IMG/VR virus record: IMGVR_UViG_3300026549_000048
Location: 1 to 64,000 of that record
Source of the DNA: a virus
Taxonomy: Duplodnaviria; Caudoviricetes
Reading direction: 5' to 3' (one strand)
Length of the DNA: 64,000 nt
In this document: one piece after another, positions 1 through 64,000 of the stretch
Layout of the letters: each line of letters opens with the position of its first letter
Numbering within the stretch: position 1 is the first letter of the stretch
The notes under the pieces: generated by a model
Told to the model about the DNA's origin: nothing
Seen by the model: only the letters and a program-made list of their open reading frames with translations
Databases searched by the model: none
Translations under genes and position numbers: made by a program

Positions 1-126
1 ACTACACCTACTACACCTACTACACCTACTACACCTACTACACCTACTACACCTACTACACCTACTACACCTACTACACCTACTACACCTACTACACCTA
101 CTACACCTACTACACCTACTACACCT
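1..126. repeat. Perfect 9-bp tandem repeat (ACTACACCT)x14, running off the window start
   Basis: Fourteen exact copies are read directly from 1-126, followed by a degenerate ATTACTACATAT. Confidence 0.98.
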
Positions 127-235
127 ATTACTACATATTTACGGCGGCGAGTAAAATAAGCACAAAACCCACTCGGTCGACCAGAGCTTTGGTACATTGC
201 TCACAAAAATTTTTCATTTTTAACCTATACGAACT

Positions 236-274
236 TCAAACCGAAATCTTTATATATTGGCTGTTACATAATAA
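236..274 (+). promoter_or_regulatory. Archaeal promoter (BRE CCGAAA + TATA TTTATATA at 249-256)
   Basis: TCAAACCGAAATCTTTATATATTGG; an identical 25-bp copy lies on the minus strand at 1999-2023. Confidence 0.85.
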
Positions 275-751: not shown

Positions 752-960
752 TAAATCACCTAATTTTAATAATATTCAATGGTTTTTGCTTCCAGTTATT
801 AAGAGTTTTTTTAAAAAAAAAGAGACAAAAACAAAATGATCTTTGCCTCTTTGGTTGTGGTGAATTCTATGAAAAAATTAGTTTCCCTTCAGGGGCACAC
901 TCGCACCCCTTACGAAGCGAGAATTTATCTCATGGATTTAATGGGTATTCGCTACCCAAA

Positions 961-1031
961 CGAACTCGAGGGGAATCGAACCCCCATCGCAAGCTCCGAA
1001 GGCTTGTGTGCTTCCATTACACCACGAGTTC
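961..1031 (-). tRNA. tRNA-Arg(UCG)
   Basis: Acceptor stem GAACTCG/CGAGTTC; anticodon arm CAAGC-CTTCGGA-GCTTG; T-loop TTCGATT; no encoded CCA. Confidence 0.92.
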
Positions 1032-1118
1032 AACCTTCATCTTGCGACAAAGGTTTTCATTGATATTAAAGGAAGGTTACAAAGTATGAAACAACTTTGT
1101 TATGGGTAAAAACCCAAA

Positions 1119-1193
1119 TGGGCACGACAGGATTTGAACCTGCGATGTTCTGGTCTGGAGCCAGACAGAATAGCCTAACTATCTTACGCACCC
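1119..1193 (-). tRNA. tRNA-Trp(CCA), intronless
   Basis: Acceptor stem GGGTGCG/CGTGCCC plus A73; anticodon arm TCTGG-CTCCAGA-CCAGA; T-loop TTCAAAT. Confidence 0.9.
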
Positions 1194-1200
1194 AAACGGT

Positions 1201-1250
1201 AACTGAAGTGCAACCACTCCATCAACAAACACTCTTGCTGCACTTCAGTT
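1201..1250 (-). ncRNA. 12-bp perfect stem with 26-nt loop, candidate small RNA between tRNAs
   Basis: AACTGAAGTGCA (1201-1212) pairs with TGCACTTCAGTT (1239-1250). Confidence 0.45.
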
Positions 1251-1296
1251 TGTATTCGCATAGGAATTGATTATATGTCAGCACCAAGAGGTGCAA

Positions 1297-1371
1297 AGCC
1301 CTATTCCCAGATTCGAACTGGGGTAGAATCGGTTCAGAACCGATAGCGTAACCACTCCGCCAAATAGGGCT
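1297..1371 (-). tRNA. tRNA with CUG (Gln) anticodon and an atypical extended acceptor stem
   Basis: Anticodon arm ATCGG-TTCTGAA-CCGAT; T-arm CCCAG-TTCGAAT-CTGGG; the acceptor stem can pair 9 bp (AGCCCTATT/AATAGGGCT). Confidence 0.85.
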
Positions 1372-1446
1372 CGGAGGGGAACCCCCCTCCAGGATATTAT
1401 TAGCACTTTCAAAGGAGGTGAAAGAAACTATAACTTATTTAACTGC

Positions 1447-1541
1447 GAGTGTTTTTAACGAGGTTGGGGGCTCAGCCCTCATAGAGTTGATATTTTATTT
1501 GAACGAAGAGTGTTTTTAACGAGGTTGGGGTCTCAACCCTC
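1447..1541. repeat. 34-bp direct repeat, 2 copies (1447-1480, 1508-1541), 32/34 identical
   Basis: GAGTGTTTTTAACGAGGTTGGGG(G/T)CTCA(G/A)CCCTC, 61-bp period. Confidence 0.95.
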
Positions 1542-1583
1542 CATGAAATATATTTGGAGGCAATAAATCATGAATATTGCCAA

Positions 1584-1655
1584 AGTCATAGGGCGGAATC
1601 GAACCACCATTTTCTGCTTACGAGGCAGATGTAATAGCCATTATACTACTATAAC
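1584..1655 (-). tRNA. tRNA-Thr(CGU)
   Basis: Acceptor stem GTTATAG/CTATGAC plus U73; anticodon arm TCTGC-CTCGTAA-GCAGA; T-loop TTCGATT. Confidence 0.92.
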
Positions 1656-1659
1656 AACG

Positions 1660-1985
1660 GGGAAAAAGGGGGAATCACCCCCTTCATCTAATTCGTGTTT
1701 CTTCGAACAGTTAAGTCTAGGTTTTATTATGAATAGATTCGGCTTCCCAAGGATAGCTCCTGTAAGGAAGCCATATGAATAAGGGGTGTTCCCCAACACC
1801 CCAAAATCACCTAACCGCAATGACCCATAGGGGTTAAAAACCAACAACCATCACCATAAAGAATCAAAAAAGACCCTATGGATCATTCATGTTTGTTTTC
1901 CCATTTAACGTGTTTTTATTATGTACTTCAAAGTGTGTGACTTGGAAATACTATGCCTCAATGACGACTTCCCAGTCACATTACT
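1660..1985 (-). ncRNA. Structured ~320-nt leader or ncRNA upstream of the tRNA cluster
   Basis: Five GC-rich hairpins (1666-1684, 1741-1772, 1783-1802, 1819-1887, 1936-1980) in an AT-rich genome, starting about 25 nt downstream of a TATA box. Confidence 0.6.
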
Positions 1986-2023
1986 TATTATGTATGAACC
2001 AATATATAAAGATTTCGGTTTGA
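1985..2023 (-). promoter_or_regulatory. Archaeal promoter driving the ncRNA/tRNA cluster
   Basis: The reverse complement reads TCAAACCGAAATCTTTATATATTGG..TACATAATAA, matching the promoter at 236-274. Confidence 0.85.
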
Positions 2024-61548: not shown

Positions 61549-61939
61549 TTTCCTCTCCCTCATTTATAATATCTTGAAAATAATTATCAAAAAAGTGTAC
61601 AAAAAATTTTCTAATATAATCACAATTAAGAAGAAGTGGAGCTATACCAAAATCTTCGCCTGTCCACGGATAATCAATGCAAAATTGACTAATCGGATCA
61701 TCATGTCTTGTACATAAATTTGTTTCTTCATCAAAATCTAAGCATCTTTGTGCTCGACAACAACGACCACATCGACTACAAGCATCAAATTCTATGACCT
61801 CTTCACGTGTAATATATTTTGCATTATGATACATTATATCTTCAATTTTTTCGTTTTTAAATTCTCGTGATAATTCTGGAAATTCATGAGAATAAAATTC
61901 TTTAAACCAATTAATACATTTCTTTGTGCTTGTATCCAT
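61529..61939 (-). CDS. YkgJ-like Cys-cluster (Fe-S/Zn) protein
   Basis: CSRCGRCC...C...C..H...C..YP. Confidence 0.8.
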   Translation of the reverse strand: MDTSTKKCINWFKEFYSHEFPELSREFKNEKIEDIMYHNAKYITREEVIEFDACSRCGRCCRAQRCLDFDEETNLCTRHDDPISQFCIDYPWTGEDFGIAPLLLNCDYIRKFFVHFFDNYFQDIINEGEENASRSD

Positions 61940-64000
61940 TAATGAACCTCCAAAATATTTAAAAACGTTTCATGTTCCATCAGGAAAAATACATATGAAC
62001 CCTCAACCATTAAATGTGGGGGATATTCTTCCGATCCAACCTCAATTTTTCCATCAAGAACTGTTTCTTCATTAATAATGAGATTATATCTCACACATGG
62101 ATTTCCATTTTTACTTGTAAAATATTTTACATCGGTTGCTACCCCACAAGGAACATTATTATTTTTTTGCAAAGATTGCACAATTTTAATAGCTTCCCCA
62201 CTATATAACCAATACTCATGTTGATATTTACTTGGATCATCTAAATTAATCAAAGATAGCAATGACCATTTTGTACCTTTTCCATTTACGTGTAATAATA
62301 ATGGAGTTCCCACTTCAAATGCTTCAACATATCTTGGAATGAATTCTTTTTCAACAAATAAAGAAACAACTTCAAATCCATCTGTTACACTTAAATATGC
62401 GTAATCTTTATTATCTTTATATTCTGTAACTAATCCTTTAATATAACAGTCATAATAATCATCTGTATGCTTAAATAATCCTGAAATAGAAGATAAATCA
62501 ATGTTAATATTCATTTCAGATAAATTATATAAATCTAAAACGTTACCTTTTGGATTAATTTTAATTCTTTGAAATTCTCTAAAGAGTGTTTCTTGTTCAT
62601 TCCAATCATCTGTTTCTTCGATTGTTTTATAAAGTGCACATCTATCTGTATTAAAACAATCAAAAGCTCCACATTCAATTAAAGCCTTTTTTACTGTTTT
62701 GTTTACTTTAGTTCTTTCGCAAAAATCTTCAAAAGATTTATATGGCTGATTAGCAATAATTTTTGGAACAGCCGCTGGACCAATTCCTTTTACCAAACTA
62801 AAGGATAAATAAATATTATTATCATCTTCCATAGTAATATCTTTTGATTGATTGATGTGAGGATTAACAATATCTTTTCCAAGATTACGTAATTCATTAT
62901 ACAATTTTGCTTTCTTTTCTTCTTTATCTGTATTGTTTAAACAAGAAAGTAAAAACTCAACTGGATAATATGTTCTCAACCAAGCAAAAATATATGTTAA
63001 AGCAGTATACCCAACACAATGAGCTTTATTAAAAGAATAAGAAGCAGATGCTTCCATTTTCGCCCACACTTTTTCAGCTATAGCGGAATCAATACCTCGA
63101 CTTGTACAAGATGCAATAAATTTTGGATAATATTCATCAAATATATATTGTAATTTTTTACCAATACCTTTTCTAATTAAATCAGCATCAACCGCACTCA
63201 TACCTGCAAAATCAGTTACAATGTGCATAGCATCTTCCTGATATACAATACAACCATATGTATCTTTTAAAATTGGTTCAAGCAAAGGATGATCATATTC
63301 AATAGGAATTTCCCCATGTTTCCTCTTTATATATAATTCGGTATCTCCAGAATCATTTGGTCCAGGTCTACATAATGCAACAACAGCAGCCAATTCATCA
63401 AAATTCTGTGGTTGCATTTTCTGACAAACTTCTGTTGCGGCTGGAGATTCAATTTGGAACATTCCCAATGTTGTTTGACAAATTGTTTGAAAAACCTTAG
63501 GATCATTATATTGTAATGGTAATGATACGCCTGGAAGTAAATCTAAACAATCTGCAATAATATCCAAACTGTTTAATCCTAATGTATCATTCTTAAGAAA
63601 ACCTAATGAATCCGCAGTCTTTCCATTATTATCCAAACAATCAACACCATTGACTCTAATAATTGAATCACGATATTCTACGTCCTGATCTAAAATTACC
63701 ATTGCTCCTGCATGAACACCATAATTCTTTAGCATTCCTGTTAATTTTGGATAATTTTCTTTAATGAAAGGGTGAGCGTCTAAATAATTTACAACATCTG
63801 GAATACTTTCAATATCATCGGTATCCCCAATCATTTTTGAGATTTTCTTTCTCAAGTCAAATGGAACTCCAGATACACGACCTAAATCATCAATTGCAAC
63901 TTTTTTCGTCCATCTCACTTGATTAATTACTTGATAAGTTCTATCATGACCAAAATCATCCTTAATGATTTTTAACACTTCTTTTCTTCTTTTTTTGCTA
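61939..64000 (-). CDS. dnaE: Family C DNA polymerase (Pol III alpha, DnaE-like), 5'-truncated by the window
   Basis: RRKEVL, GVHAGA, LKNDTLGL (catalytic Asp), GMFQIES, ALCRPGP, TYGCIVYQE, YSFNKAH, YYPVEF, KGIG; frame open to the window end. Confidence 0.95.
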   Translation of the reverse strand, partial: SKKRRKEVLKIIKDDFGHDRTYQVINQVRWTKKVAIDDLGRVSGVPFDLRKKISKMIGDTDDIESIPDVVNYLDAHPFIKENYPKLTGMLKNYGVHAGAMVILDQDVEYRDSIIRVNGVDCLDNNGKTADSLGFLKNDTLGLNSLDIIADCLDLLPGVSLPLQYNDPKVFQTICQTTLGMFQIESPAATEVCQKMQPQNFDELAAVVALCRPGPNDSGDTELYIKRKHGEIPIEYDHPLLEPILKDTYGCIVYQEDAMHIVTDFAGMSAVDADLIRKGIGKKLQYIFDEYYPKFIASCTSRGIDSAIAEKVWAKMEASASYSFNKAHCVGYTALTYIFAWLRTYYPVEFLLSCLNNTDKEEKKAKLYNELRNLGKDIVNPHINQSKDITMEDDNNIYLSFSLVKGIGPAAVPKIIANQPYKSFEDFCERTKVNKTVKKALIECGAFDCFNTDRCALYKTIEETDDWNEQETLFREFQRIKINPKGNVLDLYNLSEMNINIDLSSISGLFKHTDDYYDCYIKGLVTEYKDNKDYAYLSVTDGFEVVSLFVEKEFIPRYVEAFEVGTPLLLHVNGKGTKWSLLSLINLDDPSKYQHEYWLYSGEAIKIVQSLQKNNNVPCGVATDVKYFTSKNGNPCVRYNLIINEETVLDGKIEVGSEEYPPHLMVEGSYVFFLMEHETFLNILEVH

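What the first reader, a model, noticed from the sequence alone, without database searches (positions are those of the whole stretch)
880..1990. Promoter-driven polycistronic RNA locus: 4 tRNAs interleaved with about 12 non-tRNA structured elements
Seen: about 1.1 kb with no credible ORF, a TATA promoter at 2003-2010 (-), and GC-rich hairpins between and upstream of the tRNAs. Three are long stems with large loops (1201-1250, 1819-1887, 1936-1980), and two of those loops share UGAUGG..UGGUU, one mismatch from a box C RUGAUGA. Established: RNase P/RNase Z processing of tRNAs releases the spacers. Inference: the tRNAs may act as punctuation that releases a set of viral small RNAs (guides, decoys or antisense RNAs), a possibly undescribed archaeal-virus ncRNA system.
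Basis: partly seen in the sequence, partly recalled or inferred. Interest (0 to 1): 0.8.

Follow-up and report, generated by a model that had tools for sequence, protein, structure and literature searches.

The report
Hairpin-punctuated tRNA operon of methanogen virus
A 121-kb virus of rumen methanogens carries a non-coding operon of four tRNA genes, each bracketed by hairpins and preceded by a folded leader that related viruses keep through compensatory base changes, so the spacers are selected RNA structures, though it is untested whether they act as separate small RNAs.

Summary
Window 866-2021 (minus strand) has a BRE/TATA promoter, four tRNAs (Thr-CGU, Gln-CUG, Trp, Arg-UCG), no credible ORF and about 16 hairpins. 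All five spacers fold better than shuffles (z -2.2 to -4.7).

I fetched 13 syntenic islands from related viruses. tRNA-Thr is the fixed anchor and the other tRNAs vary. The leader module H3-CAUAUGG-H4 covaries: 17 of 19 pairs show double changes, and 0 of 500 shuffles match this. Across 35 tRNAs the rule is hairpin-tRNA-UU-hairpin (p about 1e-6 to 1e-8).

Four motifs are enriched on the tRNA strand only: GGUGAUGG, UCACCUCCU (a look-alike of the 16S rRNA 3' end), UUAAAAACAC and CAUAUG. In one rumen RNA sample, contigs covering the island have depth 188-259, against 2-25 for neighbouring genes.

My best reading is a polycistronic tRNA operon. Its hairpins most likely cap the ends made by RNase P and RNase Z and insulate tRNA folding, and some spacers may be co-opted as RNAs. 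The box C/D idea fails. Discrete spacer RNAs are not shown.

Earlier notes of this scan describe similar structured RNAs in tRNA arrays of other methanogen viruses. I rate this a new variant of a known kind (compare T4 RNA C/D), interest 0.55.

The parts
1999..2021 (-). Archaeal-type promoter (BRE-like AAACCGAAA plus TATA TTTATATA at 2010-2003)
   Evidence: The exact 23-mer is repeated at 238-260(+), with 0 expected. It sits in a 39-nt inverted repeat. Four further similar copies lie in the genome. It is invariant in 8 relatives. Its function as a promoter and the transcription start are inferred.
1936..1980 (-). H1: stem-loop at the predicted 5' end of the transcript, about 24 nt after the TATA box
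   Evidence: dG -15.2. Conserved in relatives: 94.8% of cells paired, 3 pairs with double changes, invariant apical GUCAUUG. A strain variant at 1956 turns a U.G pair into U-A.
1819..1887 (-). H2: 16-bp stem with a large loop carrying AUGGUGAUGGUU (1857-1846)
   Evidence: I23; dG -21.6. In 8 relatives the motif GGTGATGG lies 73-82 nt after the TATA box. It occurs 11 times against 0.23 expected in the islands, on the sense strand only. Strain indels fall in the loop only.
1737..1810 (-). Leader module H3 (GC hairpin 1802-1783), CAUAUGG, and H4 (two-tier hairpin 1772-1741)
   Evidence: Alignment A2: 17 of 19 pairs with compensatory changes, 92.9% paired, 0 of 500 shuffles reach this. Covariance model R1 finds an untrained copy in L022 at E=5e-8.
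1662..1688 (-). H5: GC hairpin followed by U5, ending 6 nt before tRNA-Thr
   Evidence: dG -14.2. It matches the terminator-like pattern. A hairpin at this position is present in most relatives, but the U-tract is not.
1584..1655 (-). tRNA-Thr (CGU), the conserved anchor of the island
   Evidence: tRNA-Thr(CGU) is called in 11 of the 13 islands compared. L028 has Thr(UGU) in its place, and L029 has an anticodon-less Thr-like gene there.
1559..1581 (-). Thr trailer hairpin (UU + GGCAAU..AUUGCC)
   Evidence: The stems covary in relatives, for example GCAAG/CUUGC, GGAAC/GUUCC and GGACAAU/AUUGUC.
1438..1546 (-). Two tandem copies (61-nt period) of a small hairpin GAGG..CCUC followed by the invariant tail UUAAAAACAC (1519-1510 and 1458-1449)
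   Evidence: D3, 86% identity. One copy is present in each of L014, L016, L022 and L029, and three in L027. TTAAAAACAC occurs 7 times against 0.06 expected, on the sense strand only.
1396..1434 (-). Hairpin whose loop shows CACCUCC, an anti-Shine-Dalgarno look-alike (1420-1414)
   Evidence: CACCTCC occurs 9 times against 0.59 expected in the islands, with 0 on the antisense strand.
1372..1391 (-). GC hairpin ending about 1-2 nt before tRNA-Gln
   Evidence: dG -14.5.
1297..1370 (-). tRNA-Gln (CUG)
   Evidence: Near-identical strains change positions 34, 36 and 39.
1281..1294 (-). Gln trailer hairpin
   Evidence: dG -7.5.
1201..1250 (-). Long 14-bp hairpin. Its 22-nt loop holds UUGAUGGAGUGGUU and a 10-nt complement of the tail of repeat copy a.
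   Evidence: dG -21.4. Complementarity shown. A strain variant at 1204 keeps the pair as U.G. Not found in relatives.
1118..1194 (-). tRNA-Trp (CCA)
1033..1116 (-). Trp-Arg spacer with three hairpins: Trp trailer 1116-1103, middle 1100-1079, and pre-Arg 1054-1033
   Evidence: z -4.2. Hairpins listed. Strain variants at 1103 and 1049 both keep their pairs.
960..1032 (-). tRNA-Arg (UCG)
   Evidence: The X2 RNA contig ends at 961.
810..958 (-). Trailer: Arg trailer hairpin 958-942, composite hairpin 936-866 with U6 (878-873), then a 14-bp hairpin 852-819 followed by a long U tract. These are the probable ends of the operon.
   Evidence: z -4.7. (terminator-like sites, all on the minus strand, 6 found against 1.3 expected).

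Best explanation
The region is one non-coding operon of a tailed virus of rumen Methanobacteriales. An archaeal BRE/TATA promoter at 2021-1999 starts a transcript whose first bases form a stem-loop (H1). A folded leader of about 325 nt follows (H2, H3-CAUAUGG-H4, H5), then four tRNAs.

Each tRNA is preceded by a hairpin ending 0-9 nt before its 5' end and is followed by UU plus a hairpin. Host RNase P and RNase Z cut at the tRNA ends; this step is established enzymology and is inferred here. The hairpins most likely act at the RNA level in two ways. They keep AT-rich spacers from mispairing with the tRNAs. They also cap each newly made 5' and 3' end against exonucleases.

As a by-product, every spacer is released with a hairpin at both ends. 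A few spacers carry conserved single-stranded words: AUGGUGAUGGUU, CACCUCC and hairpin+UUAAAAACAC. Those spacers have probably been co-opted for a further role that is still unknown.

What is shown: the tRNAs, the structures, their conservation and covariation, the strand specificity, and presence in abundant RNA contigs. What is inferred: the transcription start, the cleavage sites, the capping role, and any activity in trans.
For: tRNAs and promoter.

Spacer structure: z -2.2 to -4.7, with 16 hairpins.

Synteny: an island follows the terminase-portal-230aa-362aa genes in 13 related contigs.

Covariation: the leader module has 17 of 19 compensatory pairs, 0 of 500 shuffles reach this, and slid controls give 47-64% paired against 92.9% observed. 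Model R1 finds an untrained homologue at E=5e-8.

Hairpin bracketing: for 35 tRNAs the upstream 36 nt fold at mean -9.2 against -3.7 kcal/mol for shuffles, and the downstream 32 nt at -5.4 against -2.0 (Wilcoxon 2e-8 and 1e-6).

Strand: sense spacers fold better than antisense in 11 of 13 islands (p=0.0012). Motifs are enriched on the sense strand only. Four strain variants that fall in stems all keep the pair, and two of them become U.G, which would be A.C on the other strand.

RNA: contigs at depth 259 (961-2570) and 188 (1000-1559), against 2-25 for adjacent viral genes, bridge tRNAs and spacers.
Against: - No read-level RNA data are available, so the start, the ends and discrete products are unknown.
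- The X2 contig runs 550 nt upstream of the promoter, which could be read-through or DNA.
- Both RNA libraries come from one sample.
- Capping does not explain why the leader module or the UUAAAAACAC element are conserved in sequence.
- I could not test whether host tRNA genes are bracketed in the same way.
- The related islands are not independent, so the enrichment and Wilcoxon figures overstate significance.
Confidence: 0.55

Rival explanations
1. The tRNAs serve mainly as punctuation, and the spacers are the real products: trans-acting small RNAs (decoys, sponges or antisense RNAs) released by RNase P and RNase Z. One example would be RNAs that display or end in a copy of the 16S rRNA 3' tail, or that carry a Shine-Dalgarno-like GGUGAU.
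For: - Spacers would be released with hairpins at both ends, as expected of stable RNAs.
- Conserved, strand-specific single-stranded words are enriched.
- In L016, L022 and L029 a covarying hairpin with an ACGCCA loop is followed by AUCACCUCCUU directly at the tRNA-Tyr 5' end. RNase P cleavage there would create a 3' end like that of 16S rRNA.
- The leader module covaries.
- The tails of the two repeat copies pair with two different hairpin loops (10 and 9 nt; both arise by chance in 7 of 1000 shuffles).
- Spacers are present in high-depth RNA contigs.
Against: - No discrete spacer RNA is shown.
- Most hairpins are conserved in position only.
- The tail-loop pairings are not conserved in relatives.
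- No target has been identified.
- In this window the CACCUCC word is in a hairpin loop, not at an RNase P site.
Confidence: 0.25
2. The spacers are neutral debris: decayed tRNA genes and scars left by repeated gain and loss of tRNA cassettes.
For: - tRNA content differs between relatives.
- Relatives hold orphan T-arm pieces and two tRNA-like genes with a truncated anticodon arm.
- Window 1207-1225 is 79% like the D-arm region of tRNA-Gln (D4).
Against: - No tRNA-like match in the window's spacers even at E up to 10.
- Covariation in the leader.
- Strand-specific motifs.
- Structure-preserving strain variants.
Confidence: 0.08
3. The hairpins act in DNA, for example as recombination or homing sites that shuffle tRNA cassettes (attC-like), or as protein-binding sites.
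For: - The island is highly variable, with hairpins at every cassette boundary.
- A GIY-YIG endonuclease gene lies nearby.
- The GGTGATGGTT word and the GGTGGTG-loop hairpin also occur at 113.6 and 115.6 kb, and the hairpin appears there in both orientations.
Against: - G.U pairs and A-to-G variants are tolerated only on the tRNA-sense strand.
- Sense folds better than antisense.
- Motifs are absent from the antisense strand within the islands.
Confidence: 0.07
4. The duplicated hairpin+UUAAAAACAC element is a mimic of a host CRISPR repeat (a solitary repeat unit, RNA anti-CRISPR, or mini-array).
For: - Two 43-nt direct repeats at a 61-nt period.
- A small hairpin plus a fixed tail is the general shape of many CRISPR repeats.
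- Viral repeat mimics are known (PMC10651486, read).
- From my own memory and untested: the antisense reading starts GTTTTTAACG, as some type I-B repeats do.
Against: - The copies are only 86% alike.
- The gap between them is about 18 nt.
- Relatives have single copies with variable loops.
- No host repeat could be compared.
Confidence: 0.05

Closest known systems
   Same: It is a tailed-virus, promoter-driven cluster of tRNA genes. Non-tRNA structured RNAs of unknown role are transcribed with the tRNAs and freed by the tRNA-processing enzymes.
   Different: Here the promoter and host are archaeal. Every tRNA is bracketed by hairpins. There is a long covarying leader and a set of strand-specific motifs. 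Stable accumulation of the extra RNAs is not shown here.
3' external transcribed spacer of E. coli leuZ, an sRNA sponge excised from a pre-tRNA (Lalaouna 2015, as reviewed in PMC8166272)
   Same: It is a spacer of a polycistronic tRNA transcript, released by tRNA processing, that has a regulatory function of its own.
   Different: It is a cellular, bacterial RNA with a known target. Here the RNAs are viral and archaeal, and no target is known.
TMERs of murine gammaherpesvirus 68: a tRNA-like element followed by hairpins, cut apart by tRNase Z (PMC4838037)
   Same: It is a viral RNA in which a tRNA-shaped unit is the processing handle that frees adjacent hairpin RNAs.
   Different: TMERs are Pol III units of a eukaryotic virus, and their hairpins are pre-miRNAs. 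The tRNAs here look functional, and there is no Dicer pathway.
tRNA punctuation of mitochondrial polycistronic transcripts, and haloarchaeal or plant t-elements (my own knowledge; t-elements are named in earlier notes e1-5814670 and e1-5810078)
   Same: tRNA or tRNA-like folds mark where RNase P and RNase Z cut a long transcript.
   Different: In those systems mRNAs or rRNAs are released. In this window no minihelix or t-element exists outside the four tRNAs, although relatives have anticodon-less tRNA-like genes.

Membership tests
Viral polycistronic tRNA operon | Two or more same-strand tRNA genes with cloverleaf scores above the curated threshold | tested here: met
   Four tRNAs at 53.7-64.6 bits against a gathering score of 29; ARAGORN agrees.
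Viral polycistronic tRNA operon | A single upstream promoter and co-transcription through the spacers | tested here: inconclusive
   The BRE/TATA motif is conserved. RNA-library contigs bridge tRNAs and spacers. No transcription start or read-level data are available, and one contig also extends upstream of the promoter.
Archaeal box C/D sRNA | C box RUGAUGA near the 5' end | tested here: not met
   Only GUGAUGG and UUGAUGG are present, each with one mismatch. There is no exact RUGAUGA on the transcribed strand at 860-2060 (sequence).
Archaeal box C/D sRNA | D box CUGA near the 3' end, paired with the C box through a terminal stem, plus internal C'/D' boxes | tested here: not met
   The motif sits in large hairpin loops, or directly after a hairpin in relatives, without a partner CUGA. 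No Rfam snoRNA family matches at E up to 10.
Bulge-helix-bulge processing stems (archaeal splicing endonuclease) | Two 3-nt bulges separated by a 4-bp helix | tested here: not met
   The long stems at 1887-1819 and 1250-1201 are uninterrupted helices of 16 and 14 bp.
t-element / anticodon-less tRNA mimic | An acceptor-like stem stacked on a T-arm with a UUCRANY loop | tested here: not met
   In the window the tRNA model matches only the four tRNAs at E up to 10. The feature is met in relatives: L029 4614-4678 (46 bits) and L016 5899-5965 (43 bits), both with a truncated anticodon arm.
CRISPR mini-array / solitary repeat unit | Near-identical direct repeats of 24-40 nt separated by a unique spacer of similar length | tested here: inconclusive
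   Two 43-nt copies at 86% identity, 61-nt period, about 18 nt between them. Relatives have single or irregularly spaced copies.
CRISPR mini-array / solitary repeat unit | Sequence match to a CRISPR repeat of the host | not testable with these tools
Stable spacer RNAs of a tRNA operon (T4 RNA C/D type, 3'ETS type) | Discrete accumulation of the spacer RNA after processing | not testable with these tools
   Only assembled contigs of RNA libraries were available, and these cannot show ends or sizes.

The most novel reading that the evidence does not exclude
The spacers of this viral tRNA operon are its main products. RNase P and RNase Z would release a set of hairpin-capped small RNAs that act on the host translation apparatus or on each other. 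Examples are RNAs showing or ending in the 16S rRNA 3'-tail sequence CACCUCCU, RNAs with the Shine-Dalgarno-like AUGGUGAUGGUU, and the UUAAAAACAC-tailed hairpins that pair with loops of other spacers. This would be an undescribed small-RNA system of archaeal viruses built on tRNA punctuation.
Probability: 0.25. Interest if true: 0.8.

Novelty: new variant of a known kind. Interest (0 to 1): 0.55.

Why it matters
Almost nothing is known about non-coding RNAs of methanogen viruses or about how archaeal polycistronic tRNA transcripts are matured. This locus gives a compact, conserved and apparently well-expressed test case with four features:
- a rule (hairpin-tRNA-UU-hairpin) that can be tested with purified archaeal RNase P, RNase Z and RNase J;
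- a covarying leader RNA;
- short strand-specific words, one of which mimics the ribosome's mRNA-docking tail;
- a family of about 88 related islands for statistics.

If the spacers prove to be functional RNAs, viral tRNA islands would have to be read as mixed tRNA/sRNA operons. That would be relevant to how viruses take over translation in rumen methanogens.

Tried and rejected
**Searches that found no usable relative or were chance hits**
- IMG/VR holds only one relative, and it is cut inside the 362-aa gene.
- DNA similarity to deposited phages found no match.
- Exact-word scans of IMG/VR gave only chance hits. L009 lies in coding DNA, and L010-L012 are unrelated with no tRNAs.
- The gapped promoter-to-motif pattern found nothing.
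- The two genome-collection hits (L035, L036) are contigs binned as Alistipes and Clostridiales. They are probably mis-binned viral contigs, lack the island and are partly masked.
- Methanobacterium virus PhiF1, the nearest isolate by terminase (36% identity), has no tRNA island at this place.

**Dead ends**
- I fetched KC292029 from memory as a multi-tRNA haloarchaeal virus, but it was HCTV-1 with one tRNA, so no control came of it.
- The host-genome comparison of tRNA flanks and CRISPR repeats could not be run.

**Rfam**
- Rfam gives nothing but tRNAs, both in the window region and in 103.8-121.1 kb of the genome.
- Archaeal RNase P RNA is not encoded.

**RNA contigs**
- In X3 the leader (1601-2000) has low depth (7-15) while 1000-1559 has 188, and the X3 contig starts at 1559, just after the Thr trailer hairpin. 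This could mean an internal start or differential stability. Contig depth and ends cannot carry that claim.

**Other checks**
- The tail-loop complementarity of the two repeat copies is not conserved in relatives.
- ARAGORN 'intron' calls with introns over 200 nt were disregarded as noise.
- AUGGUGAUGGUU is not the start of a conserved ORF: the reading frames in relatives end after 4 to about 30 codons (by eye).
Full report
**What the DNA is**

The window is the first 64 kb of a 121,120-bp IMG/VR virus record. Its "terminal repeat" is a 9-bp tandem array (ACTACACCT, about 14 copies) at both ends, so the map is effectively circular.

It is a tailed virus. Terminase (5308-6810-), portal (3982-5304-) and prohead protease are recognisable. 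The terminase is closest to Methanobacterium virus PhiF1 (36% over 88%, E 2e-70), and the next hit is a haloarchaeal virus. Promoters have the archaeal BRE/TATA form, and holders of the sequence are mostly bovine gut samples. A virus of rumen Methanobacteriales is therefore the likely identity. The host itself is inferred.

**Check of the observation**

ARAGORN and Rfam agree on four minus-strand tRNAs: Thr-CGU, Gln-CUG, Trp-CCA and Arg-UCG. They are the only ones in the genome.

The 23-mer AAACCGAAATCTTTATATATTGG at 2021-1999(-) occurs a second time, exactly, at 238-260(+) in front of a protein gene, with 0 expected. Looser copies lie at four other genome sites.

All five spacers fold more stably than dinucleotide shuffles (z -2.2 to -4.7), and four of five fold better than their antisense.

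Terminator-like hairpin-plus-U sites number 6 against 1.3 expected, all on the minus strand. The two that follow tRNA-Arg are a U6 tract at 878-873 and a 14-bp stem plus long U tract at 852-810. Rfam at E up to 10 finds nothing except the tRNAs.

**Relatives**

IMG/VR was nearly empty. The adjacent 362-aa protein, however, has 88 homologues at 44-75% identity in Logan, ENA and JGI assemblies. I fetched contigs for 14 of those proteins, plus two metagenome contigs, and compared 13 distinct islands, the window's included.

The order terminase-portal-230aa-362aa is kept, followed by the same promoter and a gene-free stretch of 0.5-1.4 kb. tRNA-Thr(CGU) is almost always first. L028 has Thr-UGU, and L029 has an anticodon-less Thr-like gene. 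The other tRNAs differ between relatives: Tyr, Trp, Ile-UAU, Ser, Val, Asn, Gln, Arg and Phe.

BLAST conservation covers the promoter plus first hairpin, tRNA-Thr with its trailer and the following element, and tRNA-Trp. More distant homologues (43-45%) lack the island.

**Conserved structure in the leader**

The first hairpin starts about 22-24 nt after the TATA box in all close relatives, which is at the expected transcription start (inference). It has covarying outer stems and an invariant apical GUCAUUG.

The module H3-CAUAUGG-H4 (window 1810-1737) has 19 pairs, of which 17 show changes on both sides. In all, 92.9% of cells pair, no shuffle out of 500 reaches the observed values, and slid registers give 47-64%. 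A covariance model built from six sequences finds a seventh, untrained copy in L022 at E=5e-8. It also finds a weak partial copy at genome position 115.6 kb.

**The bracketing rule**

For 35 tRNAs in 13 islands, the 36 nt upstream and the 32 nt downstream are far more structured than shuffles: -9.2 against -3.7 and -5.4 against -2.0 kcal/mol (Wilcoxon 2e-8 and 1e-6).

Typically a hairpin ends 0-9 nt before the tRNA. The trailer reads UU followed at once by a hairpin that begins with G. These hairpins differ in sequence between relatives but keep their place. The Thr trailer hairpin visibly covaries.

**RNA rather than DNA**

Four lines of evidence point to RNA on the tRNA-sense strand:
- Sense spacers fold better than antisense in 11 of 13 islands (p=0.0012).
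- Helices contain G.U pairs on the sense strand.
- Near-identical strains seen in two DNA-type runs differ at four stem positions in the spacers (1049, 1103, 1204, 1956), and each change keeps the pair. Two of the changes are A-to-G, giving U.G, which would be A.C on the other strand. The other listed single changes and indels fall in loops or linkers or remodel repeat copy b (1446, 1463-1475). That variant list was truncated and the contigs have depth 4-6.
- Short words are enriched on the sense strand only, in 14 kb of islands: GGTGATGG 11 against 0.23 expected, CACCTCC 9 against 0.59, TCACCTCCT 7 against 0.05, and TTAAAAACAC 7 against 0.06. Their reverse complements occur 0 times. The palindrome CATATG occurs 15 times against 3.7.

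The islands are related, so these figures are inflated. Even so, the flanks of the words differ from island to island.

This word is part of AUGGUGAUGGUU, which lies 73-82 nt after the TATA box in eight relatives. In some it sits just 3' of the first hairpin, and in others inside a very large hairpin loop. In the window it is in the loop of the 1887-1819 stem.

GGTGATGGTT occurs four times in the genome. Two of those copies lie in other non-coding GC-hairpin regions at 113.6 and 115.6 kb.

It is not a box C/D sRNA. There is no exact C box, no D box and no terminal stem, and no reading frame is conserved after its AUG.

**The duplicated element**

A small GAGG..CCUC hairpin followed by the invariant UUAAAAACAC occurs twice in the window at a 61-nt period. 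It occurs once in each of L014, L016, L022 and L029, and three times in L027 (48% relative). One L027 copy has a GAGG/CCUC to AAGG/CCUU double change.

In the window only, the tail of copy a is complementary over 10 nt to the loop of the 1250-1201 hairpin. The tail of copy b is complementary over 9 nt to the trailer hairpin at about 905-897. Both arise together in 7 of 1000 shuffles, and relatives do not share this.

**RNA data**

Two RNA libraries of one bovine gut sample contain the locus without mismatches. One contig covers 961-2570 at word depth 259. Another covers 1000-1559 at depth 188. Contigs over the neighbouring viral genes have depth 2-25.

These contigs join tRNAs to spacers, so long unprocessed molecules (or DNA) exist, and the island is far more abundant than the flanks. 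Contigs cannot show ends, strand or discrete small RNAs.

**Reading**

The simplest account that covers all this is a polycistronic tRNA operon whose spacers are built from RNA hairpins. The hairpins insulate tRNA folding and cap the ends created by RNase P and RNase Z. The transcript also begins with a 5'-terminal stem-loop.

This account does not explain the sequence-level conservation of the leader module, the UUAAAAACAC element, or the words that look like a Shine-Dalgarno site and like the 16S rRNA 3' tail.

That model is strongest in relatives. There, a covarying hairpin with an ACGCCA loop is followed by AUCACCUCCUU directly at the tRNA-Tyr 5' end, so RNase P would create a 16S-like 3' end.

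Neutral tRNA debris, DNA-level sites and a CRISPR-repeat mimic are less likely, for the reasons given under rival explanations.

**Comparison with what is known**

The closest known case is the T4 tRNA operon with RNA C and D (my own knowledge). Functional pre-tRNA spacers are known in E. coli. Viral tRNA-plus-hairpin units cut by tRNase Z are known in MHV68.

Earlier notes of this scan report structured RNAs, anti-ribosome-binding-site look-alikes and anticodon-less tRNA mimics in tRNA arrays of other methanogen viruses. This locus therefore belongs to a recurring, still undescribed theme rather than being unique.

I rate it a new variant of a known kind, interest 0.55.

Noticed in passing
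window 1-130 and genome 121,001-121,120: A tandem array of the 9-mer ACTACACCT (about 14 copies) forms the 120-bp 'direct terminal repeat'. It lies about 100 bp from the repeated promoter and about 5 kb from the terminase gene. It could be iterons, a packaging site, or only the assembly closure point.
   Followed up: partly
window 236-274 and 1985-2023: A 39-nt inverted repeat (92%) places two copies of the same promoter facing each other across the 106-aa gene, the 48-aa zinc-ribbon gene and the tRNA operon.
   Followed up: partly
genome 112.7-119 kb (outside the window; L031, L034): Gene-poor DNA dense in GC-rich perfect hairpins: 26 of the genome's 37 lie at 112-120 kb. It includes copies of GGTGATGGTT and of the GGTGGTG-loop hairpin and a 70-nt direct repeat of a promoter-like cassette. 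There is no Rfam match. On the circular map it adjoins the tRNA operon, so it may hold further structured RNAs.
   Followed up: partly
genome 111,828-112,409 (L034 8028-8609, minus): A 60%-GC island in a 30%-GC genome encodes a DprA-like protein (DNA_processg_A, E 1.6e-37), probably acquired horizontally.
   Followed up: partly
L029 4614-4678; L016 5899-5965: These are tRNA-like genes above the Rfam threshold (46 and 43 bits). Their anticodon arm is replaced by a short palindrome around CATATG. In L029 the gene sits where tRNA-Thr sits in all other relatives.
   Followed up: partly
L016 6500-6581; L022 6095-6193; L029 4945-5037: A conserved spacer of about 95 nt lies upstream of tRNA-Tyr. It begins UUGGAAA and has a hairpin with fully covarying stems and a fixed ACGCCA loop. 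It ends with AUCACCUCCUU directly, or in L029 2 nt, before the tRNA 5' end. That word matches the 3' end of 16S rRNA.
   Followed up: partly
window 1332, 1335, 1337: In near-identical strains (runs X4, X5) the tRNA-Gln(CUG) gene differs at tRNA positions 39, 36 and 34, so the anticodon would read AUA. The variant list was truncated, so the full variant gene could not be rebuilt.
   Followed up: no
window 1510-1519 with 1227-1236; 1444-1452 with 897-905: Each copy of the duplicated element has its own complementary partner in a distant hairpin loop (10 and 9 nt). The two pairings are interleaved and are not conserved in relatives. In strains X4 and X5, position 1446 changes so that copy b would instead match the first loop.
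   Followed up: partly
L016 5082-5330 and equivalents in L017, L018, L022, L029, L030: Relatives carry a small gene (67-100 aa) between the 362-aa gene and the island promoter. The window lacks it, and its promoter starts 7 nt after the stop codon.
   Followed up: no
window 61939-63978 and 56745-58727: A bacterial-type DNA polymerase III alpha (DnaE) fragment and an anaerobic ribonucleotide reductase (NrdD) are encoded by this archaeal-type virus.
   Followed up: no
L035, L036: Distant relatives of the virus are filed in public MAGs labelled Alistipes finegoldii and Clostridiales. This is probably binning error, not host evidence.
   Followed up: no
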